From NCBI GenBank assembly GCA_000165345.1, contig CM000430.1, positions 800,001 to 864,000 of the forward strand: DNA of 64,000 nucleotides, given 5' to 3'. Below, one piece after another: positions 4,799 through 46,078 of this stretch; the stretch's first letter is position 1, and every line of letters begins with the position of its first letter. The position numbers were made by a program, and so were the translations under genes. The notes under the pieces were generated by a model. It made no database searches, was not told where the DNA came from, and saw only the letters and a program-made list of their open reading frames with translations.

Positions 4799-5770
4799 CT
4801 ACAATGATCTCTTCTCCAAAACAATCTTTAGATTTCGTGCATTTAGACAAATATCCTCAAATTTTGTGTTAATTAATGAAAGTTGTTTAAATAACTCATC
4901 TGGTGTTGGTGACTCCTTCATCTTAATAGTCTTAACCAAAGACTCTGAAAACTCTCTTCCAAGTATATGAACTGCCTCCATTTCAATAATAGAGTCACCT
5001 ATTGAAATAAGATTAGTAATAGTCTCTGAATCTAGCTTTTTTTGAATCTCCAGAAATGCATTAAATTTCCATTTGTGATATGCCCCTGGATATTTATGTT
5101 CATACTTTGACCTTGCTGAAATAACTGTTAATCTTGATAAAACATCAACAACTTCTGGCATATACATTTTAGCAGAATAATCAACCCATCCCTCTGAAGC
5201 ATTAGTTATTAAAAATACGTTTCCCATATCCATAGCTTTGATAAGTAACTCAACTACGCATTTTTGAATTTGATTCATAATCATTTGTACATCCTCGGGA
5301 AGAAAAGTAGACAAAAAGTTATCAGAGCACCCACCTTGGCATGCAATAATATCCTTCTCTAGTTTACCTTGAGCTGAATCATTCACAACTTGTTGTGAAT
5401 TTGAGCTTCCACTAATTCTATTCCTTTTAGTTATCTGATAATTTAAGAATGTGGTGCAAAGTAAGGTATCATCCCAATCAAAAATTATTGCAGTTTGGTG
5501 CTTTGGCGGCCTATGTGCTGAAGGAACCCAAATTTTCAAATAACTCAATTTTTCCAAGTACTTGAGCCTTGAAGAGTCATTTTGAGACAAGTCCAATAGT
5601 CTGAATAAGAAATCATCATGCTCTTTTACCTCGTCTGTAGAATCGCCACAAGACTTTTTGGAACTATGAATCATTGAACGGTCATGTCCTGAAGCGTGTA
5701 CTCTCCTTTCCCCATCATTTTTGGTAATCCCCAATCTTAAAATTAGCCTTTCTCTTACATTATCTTTCAT
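4799..5770 (-). CDS. HAD-superfamily phosphatase-like protein (DxDxT phosphatase)
   Basis: The minus-strand ORF has its ATG at 5770..5768. HAD motif I is FDWDDTL; motif II is a Thr/Ser in VFLITNASEGWV; motif III is a Lys in SAKMY/ARSKYEHKY; motif IV is IGDSIIEME. An E2F-like GGCGGGAAA sits about 175 bp upstream at 5941-5949. Confidence 0.6.
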   Translation of the reverse strand: MKDNVRERLILRLGITKNDGERRVHASGHDRSMIHSSKKSCGDSTDEVKEHDDFLFRLLDLSQNDSSRLKYLEKLSYLKIWVPSAHRPPKHQTAIIFDWDDTLLCTTFLNYQITKRNRISGSSNSQQVVNDSAQGKLEKDIIACQGGCSDNFLSTFLPEDVQMIMNQIQKCVVELLIKAMDMGNVFLITNASEGWVDYSAKMYMPEVVDVLSRLTVISARSKYEHKYPGAYHKWKFNAFLEIQKKLDSETITNLISIGDSIIEMEAVHILGREFSESLVKTIKMKESPTPDELFKQLSLINTKFEDICLNARNLKIVLEKRSL

Positions 5771-5948
5771 AATATCAAAAGCTGACTATTCCCACTACTA
5801 GCTTTGATTAGCAGTTATTTTTTAACTACTAATTCCCCTACTTCATACCAATTATATATAAAAATCCTCTTTTACTTTTCTTCAGTATCTTCTTTTCTTT
5901 ATATAATTCATTCCTTAATTACATTTTCTCTTGAGATTAGGCGGGAAA

Positions 5949-8093
5949 CTATTTTATTGGCAGTCGTTTTAAATATCTGCTACCGAAAAGGTATTCACAA
6001 ATTTCAAGAGAATTGTTTGCATTAACGGTTCCTTCTGTCATAACTATTAGAAGGTTAGGAATAGGTTTTTTCTTTTAAGAAATATTGTAAAACTTACCAG
6101 GAAGACCTCTAATTCGGGTAGCTCCTTTTAAAATACAATCTTTAATAGAATATATTGAGATATTTGGGAAGACTGAAAGCAAGACCCCAGCTATCCCAGT
6201 TATAATTGGGGCAGAGAATGAGCTACCATCCATACATCTATATTCTGTGTTGAGTGGATTTTAGTTAGAATTTGGGTTAATTTTGTATTTTTTAGATTTG
6301 CATGCATCTTACCTCCCTGTAGATATGTAGAGCAAATATTAACTCCAGGAGCTCCAATATGGACGGTCTTTCTTCCATAAGTTGCTCTTTCCATTAGTTC
6401 TCCATTACTTTAGGTGATGAATAAAGAAATGAATAGATAAAGTTTTTAATTAGAATGAAAATTAAAATTTATTACTTACCTTGTAATCGAAGTCACAGAA
6501 ATAATGTTTTCAGACCTGTGAATTAGTTAGTGAAATTCAATATAAAAGTTCAGAATGTTCTATTTATATGATTTCTTTTTAACTTACTTGAAAGATGAAG
6601 GGAAAGTTGGAACAATATCATTATTTCTATCGCTTTCATAATTACCAGAAGCTACAATTACCAACATTCCTTGATCTTCACTTCTTTTAATTGCAAGTCT
6701 TAATAATTCAATGCTTTTACTAAAGACAGTATTATTGATTTTTGATGTTCAGTATTTACACTAAAGGTACTTACCTTCTACTTCCATAGCTATGATTTGA
6801 TACTCTTACTCCTTTATCTAATGCATAGTCAATAGCTTCGACAAATCCTGATAGGAATCCTCTAATTTTTGAGTCCAAAACCTTTAATACCATGATTTGG
6901 CAAAACCAACAAATTCCTGAAATACCAACTTCCTTATTTGGGATTGCAGAAATGATGCCAGAAATATGAGTTCCATGTCCATTATTATCTACTGGTATTT
7001 TATTATTATCCACAAAATTCTAAAAGGGTTTGTTTAAATTATAAAAAGTTGTATATTAATAAAAACTTAACTTACCCATCCATAACAATCATCAACATAA
7101 CCATTCATATCATCATCAATTCCATCATTACAGTCAAACTCTCCAAAATTCCTCCATATTTTTCCTCTCAAATCAGGATGCTCAAAATCAATCCCAGAGT
7201 CAATAACTGCAATTACAACATTTCCCATTCCTTGATCCTTAAGTTCTGAAACTCTTTTCCACATTTTTGCTGACTTTATCCCAAATTTTGAATCATTATG
7301 AAACCATTGTCTTTCATAAATAGTTGAATAGTTTTCAGTAGTTATTGTTGGCCTGATGGAGTTATTTATTTTTGGTATCTCAAATGTACTTCTGTAATTG
7401 TTTTCTTCGAATCCAATAAACTCGTCCAAATACACTCCCTAATAAAAGTTACAAAAATCTAGACGTAGAATTATTATAACTTACCTGAATCAAATCTTGA
7501 AACAAGCTGACTTGATCCTTTATTACATTCAGGAATTTTGTCATCTGATCATTATCTTTAGTTTGTATAATCTCCATGCTTAAATTCTTTAAATACCTTG
7601 TTTTTGTATTGTTAAACTAATAGTTTTGAAGAATTAATTTGATAAAATGTTTCATTATCCTTCCCATACAAATTAAAATTGAACAAATATATGGGAATTA
7701 TGAAAGCTTAACTCACCTTGAGTATATTAAAAGCTCTTTCAATAATGTTTTTAAACCTCAATCTTAATCTTAAAAATAACTCACTTGAGCCACTATTACT
7801 ATCTTTATATACAAATATTATTCTATTCGAGTCTTGATATTGTGATTCATTAACTTTAATCTAAATACATGTGATATAAAGCAATGTTTTAATGAGAGTT
7901 ATTTTGAAATTTTAACAGGGATTTGTTACTAGTTACTTACCTTTTTTATCAAATCCGTTAACCTAGTACCAAGATTAGAATCCTGCCTTTTAGAAACTAA
8001 TTCAGCTCCATTTTCTATTCTAATCAAGTTCTGAGACCTAACTGTTATTATAATAGTTACCAGGATTTGAATTATCAGTAGTTTTGCCCTCAT
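5949..8093 (-). CDS. Subtilisin-like serine protease (peptidase S8), multi-exon (about 10 exons, 9 short introns)
   Basis: The ATG is at about 8093 and encodes the signal peptide MRAKLLIIQILVTIIITV. Hand-assembled minus-strand exons are approximately 8093-7941, 7860-7718, 7628-7486, 7441-7078 (catalytic Asp: VIAVIDSGIDFEHPDL), 7021-6774 (catalytic His: NNGHGTHISG), 6747-6617 (oxyanion Asn: IVASGNYESD), a short exon at 6538-6503, 6397-6283 (VHIGAPGVNICST), 6244-6098 (catalytic Ser: DGSSFSAPIITG) and a terminal exon ending in TAG near 5949. All introns start GTAAGT/GTGAGT, end YAG and are 60-100 bp. The ORF-track fragments 7067..7435, 6771..7013 and 6200..6394 are pieces of this gene. Confidence 0.6.
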
Positions 8094-8445
8094 TCGGAGC
8101 TATTGTTATTTTTTATATATTATATTTAAAAAAAAGAAATATATATTTTATATTATTTTCAATTAAAATATAATGAGCAAAAATTTCCTCTTCTTTTCCT
8201 ATCACCTATTATTGGAAAAAAAATATATTAAACTTTTAGTCAAATTGTTTTCTTTTATTTTTTTTCCCTCTGTTTACCTATATCTCATTATACTTATTCA
8301 AAATTCTTGCATTGTCTTTATAGATAACCCTAGTTTCTCCAACCTATATAATTAAACAACTTTATGTGTTTTTATATTTTTTACGTAATAATTTTAATGT
8401 GGACAATTGTTTCATATACCGGTGCTCCTATTACGTAAGAATAGT

Positions 8446-8483
8446 TTGCATGTAGTGCATGCAATTGAAATGCATGCATGAGC
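8446..8483. promoter_or_regulatory. Cluster of three GCATGC(A) palindromes (TTTGCATGTAGTGCATGCAATTGAAATGCATGCATGAGCG) upstream of the subtilisin gene
   Basis: About 350-390 bp 5' of the subtilisin ATG at about 8093 on the minus strand. An E2F-like half-site TTTTGCGGG follows at 8489-8497. Confidence 0.4.
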
Positions 8484-8625
8484 GAAATTTTGCGGGTTTG
8501 GAGAAGAAAAATAATGAACGCGAAAAATAGAGTTATTGGAAAGAGTAAGAAGCACTAATTATTCGAATTTTTAGTTTTTTTCCTTCCAAATTTGTGAATT
8601 TGAGAGGCTGAATTGAATCGTTTTT

Positions 8626-11046: not shown

Positions 11047-13245
11047 TTAGCCCCAGAGAATTAGGGATGGTTTTCCGTCTTTGTTAATTCCAGCTGTGAA
11101 TATCCAAGGTTGCCTTGGATGCCAAATAGCTGAGCTAATAAAAGAAAGCTCTCCTTTAATTACCTTTAGAGGGACAAAAACGGGATCACTCATTAGATCT
11201 GTGGGCATTCTGCAATGGAAAACATTAATAGTGCCATTTTTACTAGCAGAGAAAACCATAGATTTTCCTTGGTGGAATTGTACTTTTTTGATAGCTGATT
11301 CACTATATCTTAAAAGTTTATAAGGAGTATTTCCAAGATCCAGATCAAACCAGGCAATTCTTCCATTGGATTGTCCGACAAAGATATGTTTCCCTGAAGA
11401 ATCTAAAGAAATGGTTGTTGGATCTTCAATACCAATAAGTTTTTTGACCAAAGCTTTACCAGTATTTTGGTTACCAAGCTTCTTATTACCTGTTTTACTA
11501 GATGTTAGGTCAACAATCCTAATACATGTTTGAGTAGCAACAATAAGCCATGGGTTAGATGAGTGAAACTGAACAGATTTAACCAATCCACTAAGTTTTT
11601 TAAATGCAGTAATTGATGAGCATCTATTGATAGAATGAATAACAACTCTTTGTGAAGGTGAAATAGCTCTTGGAGATACTGCAGCTAAATACCCTCCTTT
11701 ACTATGCCAGGATAAATGTCTAATAGTAGATTGATGTTTAATTACAACAGCTGAGCTTAATTCTTTATTTAATTCAGAATTAGAATCCAAATTAATGCTA
11801 TTCCATGAAAGTAACTCCAATTTACTGGATTCTTTATTATAAGTATGGAGATCCTCAAATAATTCCAAAGAATGTTGATAATCTTTTATTGGGTCCTTTT
11901 CCTTGTTTTTAGAATTTTTAATTATTTCATCTGAATCCGAAGTTTCTTCCTGTTCAATATCAGTGGAAGCTTCAGAGTCTTCTGCAAAGCAAATGCTTGG
12001 AAGTTTCAGTACTAAAATAAAGAGATATTCCTCAACTCCACAAGCTAAAATAGGCAAATTAGGATGAAACGCTAGAGTTGTTATAGAGTTTGTGTTAGAT
12101 TCTTGTGTTTCATCACTAGAAGATGGTTCATCGTAGATATTTACTTGTTGAGCTAACTTTGATATATCCAATTTAAAAGCTATTCGTGAAGTAGATATTT
12201 CAAATACTGTCAATAGATTACCTACTCCCACAGCTAGCCAGAATCCATCAGATGATGCAGACATTTGTATATTTTTACTGTCAATAATTTGATCAAAGTC
12301 ATATCTAATTCTGATTGAAGTTGGATAAGGTTTCAAATCGCTTGTATCAATTGGGGGAGGCAAGATACTTTCAGGATCAACGTTCATTCTCATTTTCATA
12401 GCTCTAGGACACAAATAAAGATCCAAGCAACGCTCAAACCTTTCAGTAATGAGCTTGTCATAAGCTGGTACCCTTCTTAGACAATCAAATTTAGATGGTA
12501 TAAATGTATTTTCCAGTTCACCCTCTTTCTCAAGCTTAGAAATCTCATCCTCATCAAACAAGTACTCTTCTGGAGGATTATAGCTATGTTCATGAATTGG
12601 GAGTTCCATTCTTGGTGCTGGGATATGAGGAGGCCCTTTAGAAGTAGTTTCATCAACAACCGGATCCAAAATTGCATCTTCCCAAATATCAAATACTTCC
12701 GGTTCCTTCTTCTTAATAGGATGTAAAATCTTAAGCCTTATTAACTTAATTAGATGAGTAATTTTCTTTGCTTCCCATTTAGATGGTATAAATCCGCGCT
12801 TAGGTACTGGTCTGTTTGATACTGGGAATATTTTATCTTCTAGACTGTCATTTTCATAATGGTAGCTTTCCGCATCAAAGTCAGGATTAGCATAAGTTTG
12901 AGATGAAATTCTTCGGATTATGTCCAAATCCTCATCAGTAAGTCTAACTGAAGTCTGATTTTTTTGATCGTATATTGTTCTCCATGCATCTGGATCTGTT
13001 GAATTTAGTAGAGCTTGTAACTCAGAATCTAAAGAGAAAAATGTATTAAATATATTTCAATAAGTACTAAATATAGATCATTGAGTTAACTTACCTGACT
13101 TATTGAGTAGTTTTTTCAGCCTCTCACCGTCGATTGTATATCCTTGGTGATCAAATTCGTCATACCAATGTAAAGGTACATTTCCAACGCGATTTACCTC
13201 CTCATCCTCATCTGAAATGTACAAATTTTCATCGATATACTCCAT
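11047..13245 (-). CDS. BOP1: Ribosome biogenesis protein BOP1/Erb1 (BOP1NT domain plus WD40 repeats), 2 exons
   Basis: Exon 1 is 13245..13095 and encodes MEYIDENLYISDEDEEVNRVGNVPLHWYDEFDHQGYTIDGERLKKLLNKS, which matches the BOP1 N-terminal motif IGNVPLEWYDDYDH. A 66-bp intron (13094..13029) runs from GTAAGT to TTTAG. Exon 2 is 13028..11047 and stays in frame with ORF 11047..12927. BOP1NT signatures include HSYNPPEEYL and RCLDLYLCPR. The WD40 C-terminal half ends ...WHPRQPWIFTAG. An E2F-like AAAGGCGCCAAA lies about 125 bp upstream. Confidence 0.8.
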
Positions 13246-25894: not shown

Positions 25895-26350
25895 ATTACC
25901 AAAAATGAAGCATTCCAAGACTAAGTACATTACCAATTAGTCCAAGAGATGCAAGAGCTAGAAATATATCATAATTTGTTAAATACTAAGATATTATTGG
26001 TGAATATTAATGAATCATAATCATTTTATATTTAACATTGACCAAACTTACATATAGTATTATAGAAACAAAAAATAATAATGTACTATAACTCAATATA
26101 TCCACATATTTTACATATACAGGCTTATTTTTACTCGCGATTGGACAATATTTATCCAATATTGCTTCATCATCAGACCCACAACTATCTGAATCAGTAA
26201 CATCTGAAAAAAATGCATATAAATTTATTAATTAAATAAATAATATATCTTGTTCTATTCTCACTATATAATTCCTTTCTCATTTTAATTTATATTATAT
26301 TACTTACCTGAAACTTCTATTTCTGTGTATCTTATCCTTCTTTTAATCAT
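25895..26350 (-). CDS. Candidate small 3-exon gene encoding a protein of about 95 aa with a two-helix membrane hairpin
   Basis: Hand-assembled minus-strand exons are about 26350-26308 (MIKRRIRYTEIEVS), 26203-26052 (DVTDSDSCGSDDEAILDKYCPIASKNKPVYVKYVDILSYSTLLFFVSIILY) and 25985-25895 (YLTNYDIFLALASLGLIGNVLSLGMLHFW*). Both introns start GTAAGT and end TTTCAG/TCTTAG. None of this is in the ORF track because each exon is shorter than 60 aa. Confidence 0.35.
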
Positions 26351-26888
26351 TTTGGCTTATTTTCACTTTAATTATTAATTTTGACAATTTTCAAAAAAAA
26401 AAGTTTTCCTTTTGCTTCTTTTTTTCCCTAAATTCTTAAATGCATGCATGCATTTTTTATTCTAATTAACGAAATAAAGGGGGGAGGTGTAACAGTGATG
26501 GCGGTGCTGGTTAAAATGCTCCTTTCAAATCCTTTAACTGATTTTCTTTTTAAAATAAAAAGTAACCCTTTAATTGTTAATATAACTTAAAAAATCTATT
26601 TTATTACTTACAAATCTTGCATTTAATTGAATATTTCACTCTAATATATATTTATCGTCCACATTAAAATTGCATGCGTTTTGGCGGGAAATCGTGGAAA
26701 TGCATTATTTATATTAATAGGATTAAAATTAAAATAAACTAATTGTTTTGGTTAGTATTTATTTCCTATGTTATTAAAGAAGATTTGAGCTAGATTAAAA
26801 AAACTTGAATTGAAAAATAAACAAAAGATACAATAATAAAAGTTAAATAACAATGCGAATTATATCAACAAAATGCATTGATAGTTTA

Positions 26889-44158: not shown

Positions 44159-46078
44159 ATGGCTAATAGATTTCTTATTTTGAATATCATCTTATTGTTA
44201 ACCGGGGTATTATCACAAGATTCATTAAGGTAGTGTTTAAATTATTATAAAAACCATTTATGTATCATTTGATTACAAAATGGTTTAAAATTCTTTTTTT
44301 TTCTTTTTTAACTGGGGTTTATCTTTTAATATCTTATTTGAATTTAAATAAATTCTAGATCATCAAATGAATCTTTACAATTACTTGACGAGGCTATTAA
44401 CACAAATGATACATTCTTTGATACAAATAATGATACATCATTACATCAAAGTAAGTTTTCCTTAGTTTATTATTAATTAATTGAATAATTAACAAAAAAA
44501 ATTAAAGATTTCACCTTAGATAAAGTAAAAATTAAAAATAAAATAAATAGCGATAATGAAAATAAGAACAAAACCAGCATTAAAACCAAAATTGAAGAAG
44601 AATCTGATGAATCTTTGACAAATTTGGAGTATAATTCCGAAAATAATAATACCAATTTTATAATGCCTTTCCAAAATAATATTTTAAAACTAATTGATCA
44701 TCTTAGCATTAATATTGGAAAGATCAGTTTTGAAGGACTTAAGAATGTTATTAAAGGAAAATACGTTATTAATCCAATTATTAGCACAGAAAAAGAAACA
44801 ACTTTGGTAGATCAGAATACTGTGAGCGATGGTTTTGAAGGGGATTCATCAACTTCTTCTAATGGTACTGCTGAGCCAAAACCAGAATTATCTAAATATC
44901 CTGATGTTACTGTATTACCAACAGAAGTCTTCATTCCAGAAAATACCAAATCTTTTGAACCTGCTCATGCAAGAGGAGCTCTTGGTGTTATGCCATTGCC
45001 AATGCAACTACCACCACAACCACCAGCATCTCATTCTGAAGACAATTCACAAATTTCAACAATTATTATCAATGAATCAAACAACCATGGTGAACATATT
45101 CCCGAGACTGAAACAGCTTCAGAACAAGGTTTTGGTGGAAGGGATGATACATATGGACCAAATAATAAATATCATCATCATCATCATCATCATCATCCTT
45201 CTTATAATCATCATCATAAACATCATCACCAACACCGTCCACACCATCCACCATTTAATGGAGACAATTCCAGTTCATCATCGACATCAACTTCTTCTAC
45301 CTCTACTTCAACTTCAACTTCAACAACATCAACATCAACATCAACAACTACAACTACAACTACTACAACAACTACAACAACTACAACTACAACAAACGAA
45401 GAAGTGAATGCAGTTAAAAATATTGCTCAAAAGAGAAATTTAAGAAGATTAAAGAAAGTAGTTTTAGAAGATGAGGAAGATGAAGATGATGAATATCTAG
45501 ATGAAATTGAACAAGAAAGAGAAGACTCTAAAGAGGGTAATCAAGTAACTGAAGTTGGATTACAAATAACAATGCCTATAATAACTTTAATTGCTTCAGA
45601 AACTAAATATTGCGGAAATGGAGTTGAATATTTGAACGAATTATCTCTTAAATTTAGAGAAACAATTGGAAAATTATTTGATTTATCTTATGAAGAAGTA
45701 TTTATTGTTAAAATGACTTCTACAAATAAATCATTTGTAAATTGCAATGACAAGAATGCAGTACAAAAGGACAAATCTGGAGTTAAATTCACCTTTGTGT
45801 AAGTTTGTTTGATATATTTAATAACATTTCTAACATCAAATTTGTAGGATTGGAACAAAAATGGAAGGCTCACACATATTTAAAGTTTTGGAATTAGCAA
45901 TCAAGGATAAAGAATCTTTCCTTGTAAAAGAATTTGGAAAGGTAAGTTTTGTTCATAAAGAAGAATTTAAAGAAAATAATTCTTCTTATTTAAAATGATT
46001 AATTTTATTATTTTTACTAAATTATACTGAAAATTTCAATAGATTGGCTTCATTCAAATCTCTAAAAATATCGCATAA
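44159..46078 (+). CDS. Secreted His-rich / Thr-Ser-rich mucin-like protein, 5 exons
   Basis: Exon 1 (44159-44229) encodes the signal peptide MANRFLILNIILLLTGVLSQ. Exon 2 is 44359-44450. Exon 3 is about 44508-45798 and holds the body of ORF 44615..45802, with HHHHHHHHH, HHKHHHQHRPHH, (ST)n and a poly-Thr run. Exon 4 is 45848-45941 and exon 5 is 46043-46078. All introns run GTAAGT to YAG and phases are consistent. Confidence 0.5.
45172..45400 (+). repeat. Coding microsatellites: (CAT)n for poly-His, (TCAACA/ACTTCA)n for a Ser-Thr repeat, (ACAACT)n for poly-Thr
   Basis: Direct repeats in exon 3 of the mucin-like gene. Confidence 0.7.

What the first reader, a model, noticed from the sequence alone, without database searches (positions are those of the whole stretch)
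5949..8093. Subtilisin gene split into about 10 exons by nine 60-100-bp introns in an otherwise intron-poor, compact genome
The catalytic Asp (VIDSGID), His (HGTHISG), oxyanion Asn (SGNYESD) and Ser (GSSFSAP) each sit on a different short exon. Every junction has GTAAGT/GTGAGT donors, YAG acceptors and a consistent phase. The gene starts with a clean signal peptide. Cryptosporidium-type genomes average well under one intron per gene, so nine in a gene of about 2.1 kb is exceptional. That points to a lineage-specific or recently acquired architecture, and it also explains why this gene would be fragmented or missed by ORF-based annotation. A secreted S8 protease is biologically interesting because it is a candidate invasion or egress enzyme.
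Basis: partly seen in the sequence, partly recalled or inferred. Interest (0 to 1): 0.6.

Follow-up and report, generated by a model that had tools for sequence, protein, structure and literature searches.

The report
Intron-rich subtilase gene of Cryptosporidium parvum
This is a real but already annotated Cryptosporidium parvum gene (cgd2_3660) for a secreted subtilisin-type protease; its nine short introns are unusual for this genome, but they are old rather than recently acquired, and the gene is switched on in female gametes rather than in invasive stages.

Summary
On the minus strand of 5949-8093, ten exons joined across nine GT-AG introns give a clean 1542-nt ORF. Intron lengths are 46-100 nt, not 60-100. 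The 513-aa product has a signal peptide, a pro-region and a complete S8 catalytic domain (D223, H279, N372, S442, on exons 4, 5, 6 and 9).

My model is residue-for-residue identical to the public C. parvum IOWA-ATCC protein QOY42863.1 (CPATCC_000546, 'Subtilase family', cgd2_3660), so the gene and its structure are already known. Ten exons is the maximum reported for C. parvum. The rest of the window is intron-poor, and the SUB1-like subtilase paralogue is intronless.

The 'lineage-specific or recently acquired' reading is not supported:
- All nine positions and phases are conserved from C. parvum to C. muris.
- Introns 4 and 5, with the 245-nt exon between them, sit at exactly the same positions in Toxoplasma and Neospora SUB3.
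- The most likely explanation is ancestral introns that escaped the genome-wide intron loss.

The 'invasion or egress' suggestion is also weak. Published RNA-seq shows no expression in asexual stages and about 44-fold higher expression in female gametes, in a set of genes linked to oocyst wall formation. The Eimeria orthologues are upregulated in gametocytes.

Verdict: real, correctly described and a modest curiosity, but already known.

The parts
5949..8093 (-). Whole coding span of the subtilase gene (cgd2_3660 / CPATCC_000546): 10 exons, 9 introns, 513 codons plus stop
   Evidence: Spliced ORF. Exact protein identity to QOY42863.1. Pfam S8.
7941..8093 (-). Exon 1 (aa 1-51): start codon, signal peptide MRAKLLIIQILVTIIITVRS, start of the pro-region
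   Evidence: The public name includes 'signal peptide'.
7861..7940 (-). Intron 1, 80 nt, GTAAGT..TAG, phase 0
   Evidence: Position conserved across Cryptosporidium species.
7717..7860 (-). Exon 2 (aa 52-99), pro-region
7617..7716 (-). Intron 2, 100 nt, GTGAGT..TAG, phase 0
7485..7616 (-). Exon 3 (aa 100-143), pro-region, including the conserved RYLxxLxMEII motif
7439..7484 (-). Intron 3, 46 nt, GTAAGT..TAG, phase 0
7076..7438 (-). Exon 4 (aa 144-264): end of the pro-region, a linker, and the start of the catalytic domain with catalytic Asp223 (codon 7201-7199)
7020..7075 (-). Intron 4, 56 nt, GTAAGT..TAG, phase 0 (GW|NF). Same position and phase in T. gondii and N. caninum SUB3.
6775..7019 (-). 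Exon 5 (aa 265-345), 245 nt, with catalytic His279 (codon 6977-6975). The exon has the same length in Toxoplasma and Neospora SUB3.
6720..6774 (-). Intron 5, 55 nt, GTAAGT..TAG, phase 2. Same position and phase in T. gondii and N. caninum SUB3.
6588..6719 (-). Exon 6 (aa 346-389) with oxyanion-hole Asn372 (codon 6643-6641)
6516..6587 (-). Intron 6, 72 nt, GTAAGT..CAG, phase 2
6480..6515 (-). Exon 7 (36 nt, aa 390-401)
   Evidence: Also 36 nt in all Cryptosporidium species examined.
6408..6479 (-). Intron 7, 72 nt, GTAAGT..AAG (the one acceptor that is not YAG), phase 2
6313..6407 (-). Exon 8 (aa 402-433)
6245..6312 (-). Intron 8, 68 nt, GTAAGA..CAG, phase 1. Contains a TGCATGCA motif at 6299-6306.
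6098..6244 (-). Exon 9 (147 nt, aa 434-482) with catalytic Ser442 (codon 6221-6219)
6044..6097 (-). Intron 9, 54 nt, GTAAGT..TAG, phase 1. An in-frame alternative acceptor 12 nt downstream (exon then starts at 6031) gives the 509-aa public variant.
   Evidence: The VMTEG peptide is conserved in C. canis and C. bovis, with VMG in C. muris.
5949..6043 (-). Exon 10 (aa 483-513 plus TAG stop at 5951-5949), with the conserved C-terminal GTVNA..SL motif
8456..8478 (.). Two palindromic TGCATGCA motifs, 363-385 nt upstream of the ATG. These are candidate AP2-binding promoter elements.
   Evidence: The motif occurs 12 times in the window against 0.4 expected. Upstream copies are conserved in C. hominis, C. 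canis and C. muris. The motif is bound by the AP2 domains of cgd2_3490 and cgd1_3520 (PMC4117751). A role at this gene is inferred, not shown.

Best explanation
The region is the Cryptosporidium parvum chromosome-2 gene cgd2_3660 (CPATCC_000546). It encodes a 513-aa secreted pre-pro-subtilase of family S8A.

The primary transcript is spliced at nine short GT-AG spliceosomal introns. The product has a signal peptide, a pro-region of about 120 residues predicted to fold as beta-alpha-beta-beta-alpha-beta like a subtilisin propeptide, a flexible linker, and a complete catalytic domain (Asp223, His279, Asn372, Ser442).

By analogy with other subtilases, the prodomain would chaperone folding, be cut off autocatalytically and then be released. 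That step is inferred.

The gene belongs to the apicomplexan SUB3-type orthologue group: T. gondii and N. caninum SUB3, and E. tenella subtilisin 4 and ETH_00009270. It is transcribed in female gametes and not in asexual stages. Its most likely job is therefore processing secreted proteins during oocyst wall formation or another sexual-stage step. That is inferred from expression and from work on Eimeria.

The intron-rich structure is old. All nine introns predate the split of the intestinal and gastric Cryptosporidium clades, and at least two predate the split from coccidia. The gene is therefore best seen as one that escaped the massive intron loss of this lineage, not one that gained introns recently.
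For: Gene model and identity:
- The spliced ORF is clean.
- The 513-aa product is identical to QOY42863.1/WRK31158.1, and the 509-aa alternative-acceptor variant is identical to KAL5370161.1.
- The neighbouring ORF is 100% identical to C. parvum EAK88662.1.
- Baptista et al. 2022 state that the introns of that annotation are 100% supported by RNA-seq (PMC8744675).

The introns are real:
- Against C. canis, exons are 78% identical and introns about 54%, with many indels and different lengths.
- dN/dS between C. parvum and C. hominis is 0.031.

Protease features:
- Pfam S8 at E=1.3e-48.
- Best solved relatives by sequence are deseasin MCP-01 and Plasmodium SUB1.
- The AlphaFold model has mean pLDDT 87.5, with strand 64-69, helix 77-98, strand 104-108, strand 113-117, helix 121-133 and strand 142-147 before the catalytic domain, and a low-confidence linker at 157-168.
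- The best fold matches are pro-enzyme structures of PfSUB1 and PvSUB1 aligned over 475-514 columns, and pro-subtilisin E.

Age of the introns:
- All nine positions and phases are shared across five Cryptosporidium species.
- Introns 4 and 5 and the 245-nt exon between them are shared with Neospora and Toxoplasma SUB3.
- The chance of two or more exact coincidences is about 4e-4 under uniform random placement.

Contrast with a paralogue: the SUB1-like subtilase is a single exon.

Expression (Tandel et al. 2019, PMC6877471):
- Mean log2 CPM is 0.96 in asexual stages (the floor value), 6.43 in females in vitro and 6.55 in females in vivo, with a log fold change of 5.47.
- The gene is listed in the protease set of female genes with a probable oocyst-wall role.
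- The Eimeria orthologues ETH_00006825 and ETH_00009270 are upregulated in gametocytes.
Against: - No transcript reads could be examined here. Junction support rests on published annotation statements and on comparative evidence.
- Public annotations disagree on the intron 9 acceptor (513 versus 509 aa).
- Pfam does not recognise the pro-region as I9. The prodomain fold is a prediction.
- No substrate or localisation is known. Cryptosporidium wall proteins differ from the Eimeria GAM56/GAM82 substrates, so the oocyst-wall role is only an analogy.
- Seven of the nine introns have so far been seen only in Cryptosporidium, so gain in the stem lineage is not excluded for those.
- SUB1 (cgd6_4840) is also female-enriched in the same data set. 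Female expression alone therefore does not separate wall formation from other roles.
Confidence: 0.85

Rival explanations
1. The introns were gained recently or specifically in this lineage. For example, a burst of intron insertion could have hit this one gene.
For: Seven of the nine positions are not seen in Toxoplasma or Neospora SUB3. An unidentified compact eukaryote (L011) has an uninterrupted ORF across sites 1-7. Gain in the Cryptosporidium stem lineage cannot be excluded for those seven.
Against: All nine introns are present at identical positions and phases in C. muris, C. bovis, C. canis and C. hominis, so none is recent. Introns 4 and 5 are shared exactly with coccidian SUB3. Introns 8 and 9 have near-coincident phase-1 counterparts bounding an exon of the same 147-nt length in L011. 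The introns show no similarity to one another or to repeats that would suggest a burst; I read this from the sequence and did not test it formally.
Confidence: 0.1
2. The protein is an invasion or egress protease of the invasive stages (sporozoites, merozoites), working like Plasmodium or Cryptosporidium SUB1.
For: The closest solved folds are Plasmodium SUB1. It is a secreted subtilase with a prodomain.
Against: Transcripts are at floor level in sorted asexual stages. A second table gives nine values for this gene: six low values followed by three near 5.8. I did not read that table's column headings, so I cannot say which stages they represent. The true SUB1-like gene of Cryptosporidium is a different, intronless paralogue with a NIDO domain, cgd6_4840 (its counterpart in Cryptosporidium sp. 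chipmunk genotype I is P0147), which shares only about 44% identity over about half the length.
Confidence: 0.1
3. The gene was recently transferred from a bacterium and then acquired introns.
For: After the Cryptosporidium orthologues, the best database hits to the catalytic domain are bacterial S8 peptidases at about 40% identity.
Against: The same gene, with the same pro-region motifs (RYLxxLxMEII), occurs in coccidia and gregarines. It shares two intron positions with coccidia. Synteny (BOP1, unknown gene, subtilase, HAD-like gene) is conserved from C. parvum to C. muris. Any bacterial ancestry would therefore predate the apicomplexan radiation.
Confidence: 0.03
4. It is a decaying pseudogene, and the apparent introns are frameshifted junk.
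For: No ORF in the region exceeds 122 aa. The first public model was partial.
Against: Canonical splice sites restore one frame through all ten exons. dN/dS is 0.031. All catalytic residues are intact. The gene is expressed in females. Exon lengths of 245, 132, 36, 95 and 147 nt are conserved across the genus.
Confidence: 0.01

Closest known systems
C. parvum cgd2_3660 / CPATCC_000546 'Subtilase family' (QOY42863.1) and its Cryptosporidium orthologues
   Same: It is the same gene. The protein is 100% identical, with the same 10-exon structure as the C. hominis model.
   Different: Nothing differs, apart from the choice between two in-frame acceptors for intron 9 (513 versus 509 aa).
Toxoplasma gondii, Neospora caninum and Besnoitia SUB3, and Eimeria tenella subtilisin 4 (ETH_00006825) and ETH_00009270 (OrthoMCL group OG5_149677)
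   Same: These are the closest non-Cryptosporidium eukaryotic relatives that carry a name. They share pro-region and catalytic motifs. Two intron positions and the 245-nt exon are identical. The Eimeria members, like this gene, are expressed in female or gametocyte stages.
   Different: Identity is about 31-38%. The coccidian proteins are longer (691-989 aa), with N- and C-terminal extensions. They have 5-6 much longer introns, three of them at other positions, and lack Cryptosporidium introns 1-3 and 6-9.
Plasmodium SUB1 (PDB 8pol, 4tr2, 4lvn) and Cryptosporidium SUB1 (cgd6_4840)
   Same: S8A catalytic domain plus an N-terminal prodomain. These are the best structural matches over nearly the whole model.
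   Different: This is a different paralogue. Cryptosporidium SUB1 is about 1,190-1,320 aa, carries a NIDO domain and is intronless. SUB1 has documented egress and processing roles; no role has been shown for this gene.
Bacterial thermitase- and deseasin-type S8 peptidases
   Same: Catalytic domain about 40% identical, with the same triad and the same calcium-binding DGIDDDxNGYVDD-type insert.
   Different: These are prokaryotic genes without introns. Their N-terminal pro-regions (Pfam PF22148) and C-terminal domains are different.

Membership tests
Peptidase family S8 (subtilases), subfamily S8A | Sequence match to the family profile above the curated threshold | tested here: met
   PF00082, 166.2 bits against a cut-off of 21.8, E=1.3e-48, aa 216-476
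Peptidase family S8 (subtilases), subfamily S8A | Catalytic triad in the order Asp-His-Ser, plus the oxyanion-hole Asn, in the canonical motifs | tested here: met
   D223 (DSG), H279 (HGTH), N372 (GN) and S442 (G-S-S-F-S-A-P). D223 and H279 are invariant, and N372 and S442 at least 90% conserved, in 83 homologues. They align to deseasin MCP-01.
Peptidase family S8 (subtilases), subfamily S8A | Subtilisin alpha/beta fold | tested here: met
   Model with mean pLDDT 87.5. Foldseek gives TM 0.85-0.88 (normalised to the target) and rmsd 2.2-3.2 A to solved subtilases. This is a prediction, not a solved structure.
Peptidase family S8 (subtilases), subfamily S8A | Proteolytic activity | not testable with these tools
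   Needs recombinant enzyme or parasite genetics
Subtilisin propeptide / inhibitor I9 | Sequence match to Pfam Inhibitor_I9 (PF05922) | tested here: not met
   No hit even at E<=10 for the N-terminal 194 residues, or for the Neospora and C. bovis proteins
Subtilisin propeptide / inhibitor I9 | Beta-alpha-beta-beta-alpha-beta domain directly N-terminal to the catalytic domain | tested here: inconclusive
   Predicted elements: strand 64-69, helix 77-98, strand 104-108, strand 113-117, helix 121-133, strand 142-147, at pLDDT about 90. The whole chain aligns to pro-SUB1 and pro-subtilisin E. The domain was not searched on its own, and this is only a prediction.
U2-type spliceosomal introns | GT...AG boundaries whose removal restores one reading frame | tested here: met
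   Nine GT-AG introns give a 1542-nt ORF. Every intron, if retained, introduces stops or a frameshift.
U2-type spliceosomal introns | Positions conserved between species while intron sequence and length drift | tested here: met
U2-type spliceosomal introns | Spliced transcripts observed | not testable with these tools
   Only indirect: the identical public model comes from an annotation whose introns are stated to be 100% supported by RNA-seq (PMC8744675)
Apicomplexan SUB3-type orthologue group (OG5_149677) | Closest eukaryotic relatives outside the genus are the SUB3-type genes, with the pro-region shared | tested here: met
   Neospora SUB3-type protein P0029 is the best non-Cryptosporidium eukaryotic hit that carries a name. 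Its own best hits are Toxoplasma and Besnoitia SUB3, then gregarine proteins. The RYLxxLxMEII pro-region motif is shared. The OrthoMCL grouping with E. tenella genes comes from the PMC6877471 supplement. No full phylogeny was made.
Apicomplexan SUB3-type orthologue group (OG5_149677) | Shared intron positions | tested here: met
   2 of 9 are exact, together with the 245-nt exon
SUB1 (egress and maturation subtilase) orthologue | Orthology to Cryptosporidium or Plasmodium SUB1 | tested here: not met
   A separate SUB1-like paralogue exists in the genus: 1188 aa, NIDO domain, single exon. cgd6_4840 is listed separately from cgd2_3660.

The most novel reading that the evidence does not exclude
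The gene may be a 'living fossil' of the intron density that preceded genome reduction in Cryptosporidium. Most or all of its nine introns would then be ancestral apicomplexan introns, kept either because a low-level, female-gamete-only transcript rarely supplied cDNA for reverse-transcriptase-mediated intron loss, or because some introns now carry regulatory function. One example of possible function is the AP2-type TGCATGCA motif in intron 8. If so, this gene would be a natural handle on why particular genes escape genome-wide intron loss.
Probability: 0.2. Interest if true: 0.45.

Novelty: already known. Interest (0 to 1): 0.2.

Why it matters
The gene and its ten-exon structure are already in the current C. 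parvum and C. hominis annotations, and its female-specific expression is published. Nothing here changes the catalogue.

Three things have some value.
- The gene sits at the maximum exon count reported for this intron-poor genome. Its introns can be shown to be old: conserved across the genus, with two shared with Toxoplasma. That makes it a clear example of intron retention rather than gain.
- Several public orthologue models are demonstrably wrong and could be corrected from the conserved structure. The C. muris and C. bovis models have the wrong last exon, the C. ubiquitum model is a fusion, and the old Iowa II entry is partial.
- A conserved, secreted, female-specific protease with gametocyte-expressed Eimeria orthologues is a reasonable candidate for blocking oocyst formation and transmission. 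That idea already follows from published work.

Tried and rejected
- A first AlphaFold run on a 6-sequence alignment gave pLDDT 39 and was discarded. A run on 83 sequences worked.
- A Pfam search for an I9 prodomain found nothing, even at E<=10.
- A full-text search for 'cgd2_3660' found no paper. The gene appears only in supplementary tables.
- I followed the Plasmodium PIMMS2 paper as a possible orthologue lead. It concerns a Plasmodium-specific pseudo-subtilase and says nothing about this gene.
- Profile and Neospora-seeded homologue searches were meant to fetch intron-rich outgroups with genomic DNA. Most eukaryotic hits were transcriptome-derived (EukProt GHV* entries, gregarine rnaSPAdes nodes, short Logan contigs), so intron positions could not be read.
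- Contig L010 carries an uninterrupted 786-aa homologue, but I could not tell whether it is genomic or a transcript.
- Contig L011 is genomic and informative, but its organism is unidentified.
- Roy & Penny 2006 on apicomplexan intron loss is not held in the library.
- The pseudogene, recent bacterial transfer and SUB1-orthologue readings were considered and rejected, for the reasons given under the rival explanations.
Full report
**What is in the sequence**

The feature lies on the minus strand. No ORF in 5500-8600 exceeds 122 aa. Three-frame translation shows subtilase motifs spread over different frames, and nine GTRAGT sites lie on the minus strand of the region, one of them (7784) inside exon 2.

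Joining ten exons gives a 1542-nt ORF of 513 codons ending in TAG. The exons are 8093-7941, 7860-7717, 7616-7485, 7438-7076, 7019-6775, 6719-6588, 6515-6480, 6407-6313, 6244-6098 and 6043-5949.

- The nine introns are 80, 100, 46, 56, 55, 72, 72, 68 and 54 nt long, at 18-29% G+C.
- Donors are 7 GTAAGT, 1 GTGAGT and 1 GTAAGA.
- Acceptors are 6 TAG, 2 CAG and 1 AAG.
- Phases are 0,0,0,0,2,2,2,1,1.
- The unspliced reading is full of stops.

The intron size range, and the claim that every junction is GTAAGT/GTGAGT and YAG, need small corrections.

**What the product is**

The protein matches Pfam Peptidase_S8 at E=1.3e-48 over aa 216-476. Asp223, His279, Asn372 and Ser442 lie on exons 4, 5, 6 and 9. 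They are invariant or nearly so among 83 homologues. The nearest solved proteins by sequence are deseasin MCP-01 and Plasmodium SUB1.

Pfam finds no I9 domain in the N-terminal part. An AlphaFold model built on a deep alignment has mean pLDDT 87.5 and pTM 0.87. It predicts:

- a signal-peptide helix;
- a beta-alpha-beta-beta-alpha-beta unit at residues 64-147;
- a low-confidence linker at 157-168;
- the subtilisin fold.

Its best Foldseek matches are the pro-enzyme structures of PfSUB1 and PvSUB1, aligned over 475-514 columns, and pro-subtilisin E. The protein is thus a pre-pro-subtilase. Autocatalytic prodomain removal is inferred from what is established for the family.

**Whose gene it is**

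- The best database hit is a C. hominis 'putative serine protease' (98% identity, full length), followed by orthologues in C. canis, C. ubiquitum, C. bovis, C. ryanae and C. muris.
- The window is 97.4% identical in DNA to C. hominis chromosome CM098019.1 over 18 kb.
- An exact-sequence look-up shows that my 513-aa model is identical to C. parvum QOY42863.1/WRK31158.1 (CPATCC_000546, 'Subtilase family').
- The variant that uses an acceptor 12 nt further downstream is identical to KAL5370161.1/WKS76664.1.
- The downstream ORF 4799-5770 is 100% identical to the C. parvum HAD-like protein EAK88662.1 / CPATCC_000547. This is cgd2_3650 in the published tables, where the adjacent entry cgd2_3660 is 'Subtilase family'.

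The finding is therefore the known gene cgd2_3660 on C. parvum chromosome 2.

**Are the introns real**

I could not inspect reads. The supporting evidence is indirect:

- The identical public model comes from the IOWA-ATCC re-annotation, whose authors state that its introns are 100% supported by RNA-seq (PMC8744675).
- Against C. canis, exons are 78% identical with few indels. Introns align at only about 54%, with many indels and different lengths, while their boundaries are kept.
- dN/dS between C. parvum and C. hominis is 0.031 (Isaza et al. supplement).
- The gene is transcribed.

**Is nine introns unusual**

Yes.

- Isaza et al. 2015 report 688 introns in 3,865 genes, introns in 10.8% of genes, a mean intron of 99 nt at 22% G+C, and 2 to 10 exons per intron-containing gene (PMC4637869). 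This gene sits at that maximum.
- In the window, ORFs of at least 120 aa cover 70.5% of the sequence, and the largest gap between them is this gene. Seven of the 18 minus-strand GTAAGT sites fall inside it.
- A crude donor/acceptor scan finds about five other candidate introns in the remaining 62 kb.
- In the syntenic C. hominis annotation, six of seven neighbouring genes are intronless and one has a single 66-nt intron.
- The SUB1-like subtilase paralogue (1188 aa, with a NIDO domain) is one uninterrupted exon.

**How old the introns are**

I mapped each public protein back onto its genomic locus with an exact splice mapper and projected the intron positions onto protein alignments.

- C. hominis and C. 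canis share all nine positions and phases.
- The C. bovis and C. muris public models share eight. Their true last exons (VMTEGSVNAYNSLEIC... and VMGSRIINAYKAY...) lie just downstream, behind a GTAAGT donor at the same phase-1 position. The ninth intron is therefore conserved too, and those public models are wrong at the 3' end.
- Exon lengths of 245, 132, 36, 95 and 147 nt are identical from C. parvum to C. muris.
- Outside the genus, N. caninum (691 aa) and T. gondii SUB3 (969 aa) have introns at exactly the positions and phases of introns 4 (GW|NF, phase 0) and 5 (SYGSR, phase 2), enclosing an exon of the same 245 nt.
- With about 840 possible sites, two or more exact coincidences are expected with a probability of about 4e-4.
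- Their three other introns in the catalytic region are at different positions.

An unidentified compact eukaryotic contig (L011: ENA ERZ25067493, 49% G+C, 36-38-nt introns) encodes a homologue that is uninterrupted across sites 1-7. It has two phase-1 introns one codon upstream of Cryptosporidium introns 8 and 9, bounding an exon of the same 147 nt. That is suggestive of homology but not proof.

The conclusion is that none of the nine introns is recent and at least two predate the Cryptosporidium-coccidia split. The other five to seven are either ancestral introns lost elsewhere or gains in the Cryptosporidium stem lineage. The accepted picture that this lineage reduced its genome by intron loss (PMC8744675 introduction; Roy & Penny 2006 and 2007, cited from memory and from the reference list) makes retention the simpler reading.

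**What it probably does**

Tandel et al. 2019 sorted asexual and female C. parvum.

- cgd2_3660 has a mean log2 CPM of 0.96 in asexual stages, which is the floor value shared with unexpressed genes. It reaches 6.43 in females in vitro and 6.55 in females in vivo, a log fold change of 5.47.
- The gene is in the 'Protease' list of their code for the 69 female genes with a probable oocyst-wall role. The text names subtilases among these.
- Their cross-species table pairs it (OG5_149677) with E. tenella ETH_00006825 (subtilisin 4) and ETH_00009270. Both are upregulated in gametocytes (PMC4345034 Table 2).
- In Eimeria, subtilisin-type inhibitor profiles block processing of the wall precursor GAM56 (PMC3770453).

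I therefore favour a sexual-stage, oocyst-wall-related processing role over invasion or egress. The role is inferred, and no substrate or localisation is known.

**Verdict**

The organism guess and the 'exceptional for this genome' point are right. The evolutionary reading (recent or lineage-specific gain) and the functional guess (invasion or egress) are not supported. The gene, its structure and its expression are already in public resources, so the finding is not new. The intron-age analysis and the errors in the orthologue models are small additions.

Noticed in passing
window 25895-26358 (minus strand): A small three-exon gene with two GTAAGT introns (donors at 26307 and 26051). It reads MIKRRIRYTEIEVS / DVTDSDSCGSDDEAILDKYCPIASKNKPVYVKYVDILSYSTLLFFVSIILY / ALASLGLIGNVLSLGMLHFW*, apparently a tiny membrane protein. 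It would be invisible to ORF-based scanning.
   Followed up: partly
window 8456-8463, 8471-8478, 6299-6306, and nine other sites: The palindrome TGCATGCA occurs 12 times in the window against 0.4 expected, mostly in intergenic regions. Two copies lie about 370 nt upstream of the subtilase ATG, and upstream copies are conserved in C. hominis, C. canis and C. muris. One copy lies inside intron 8. This is the motif bound by the AP2 domains of cgd2_3490 and cgd1_3520 (PMC4117751).
   Followed up: partly
L002 8078-8220 (C. muris) and L003 5155-5520 (C. bovis): The public models of the orthologues mis-call the 3' end. C. muris (474 aa) reads through the intron 9 donor, and C. bovis (531 aa) uses a wrong acceptor. 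The conserved last exons lie 52 nt and 249 nt downstream of the donor, giving corrected proteins of 496 and 557 aa.
   Followed up: yes
P0003 (C. ubiquitum, 790 aa); window 4799-8093: The C. ubiquitum public model fuses the subtilase to the downstream HAD-like gene (cgd2_3650 orthologue) and skips part of exon 3. Some C. hominis entries of 806 aa look like similar fusions.
   Followed up: partly
window 6031-6043: Intron 9 has two in-frame acceptors 12 nt apart (TAG before 6043, AAG before 6031). Public C. parvum annotations use one or the other, giving 513 or 509 aa. The VMTE peptide is conserved in C. canis and C. bovis, which favours the upstream site. Alternative splicing is possible.
   Followed up: partly
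L011 (ENA ERZ25067493, contig ctg103841), 2446-4400: An unidentified compact eukaryote (49% G+C, neighbours encoding Alba, NOB1 and RRM proteins) carries a SUB3-type subtilase with very short introns of 36-38 nt. Two of them lie one codon from Cryptosporidium introns 8 and 9. The organism was not identified.
   Followed up: partly
window 13029-13094 (minus strand): The BOP1-like gene (ORF 11047-12609 and upstream) has a single 66-nt GTAAGT intron. This matches the C. hominis model, which codes 710 aa over 2199 nt. Other single candidate introns have donors at 45799 (+), 51817 (-) and 36510 (-).
   Followed up: no
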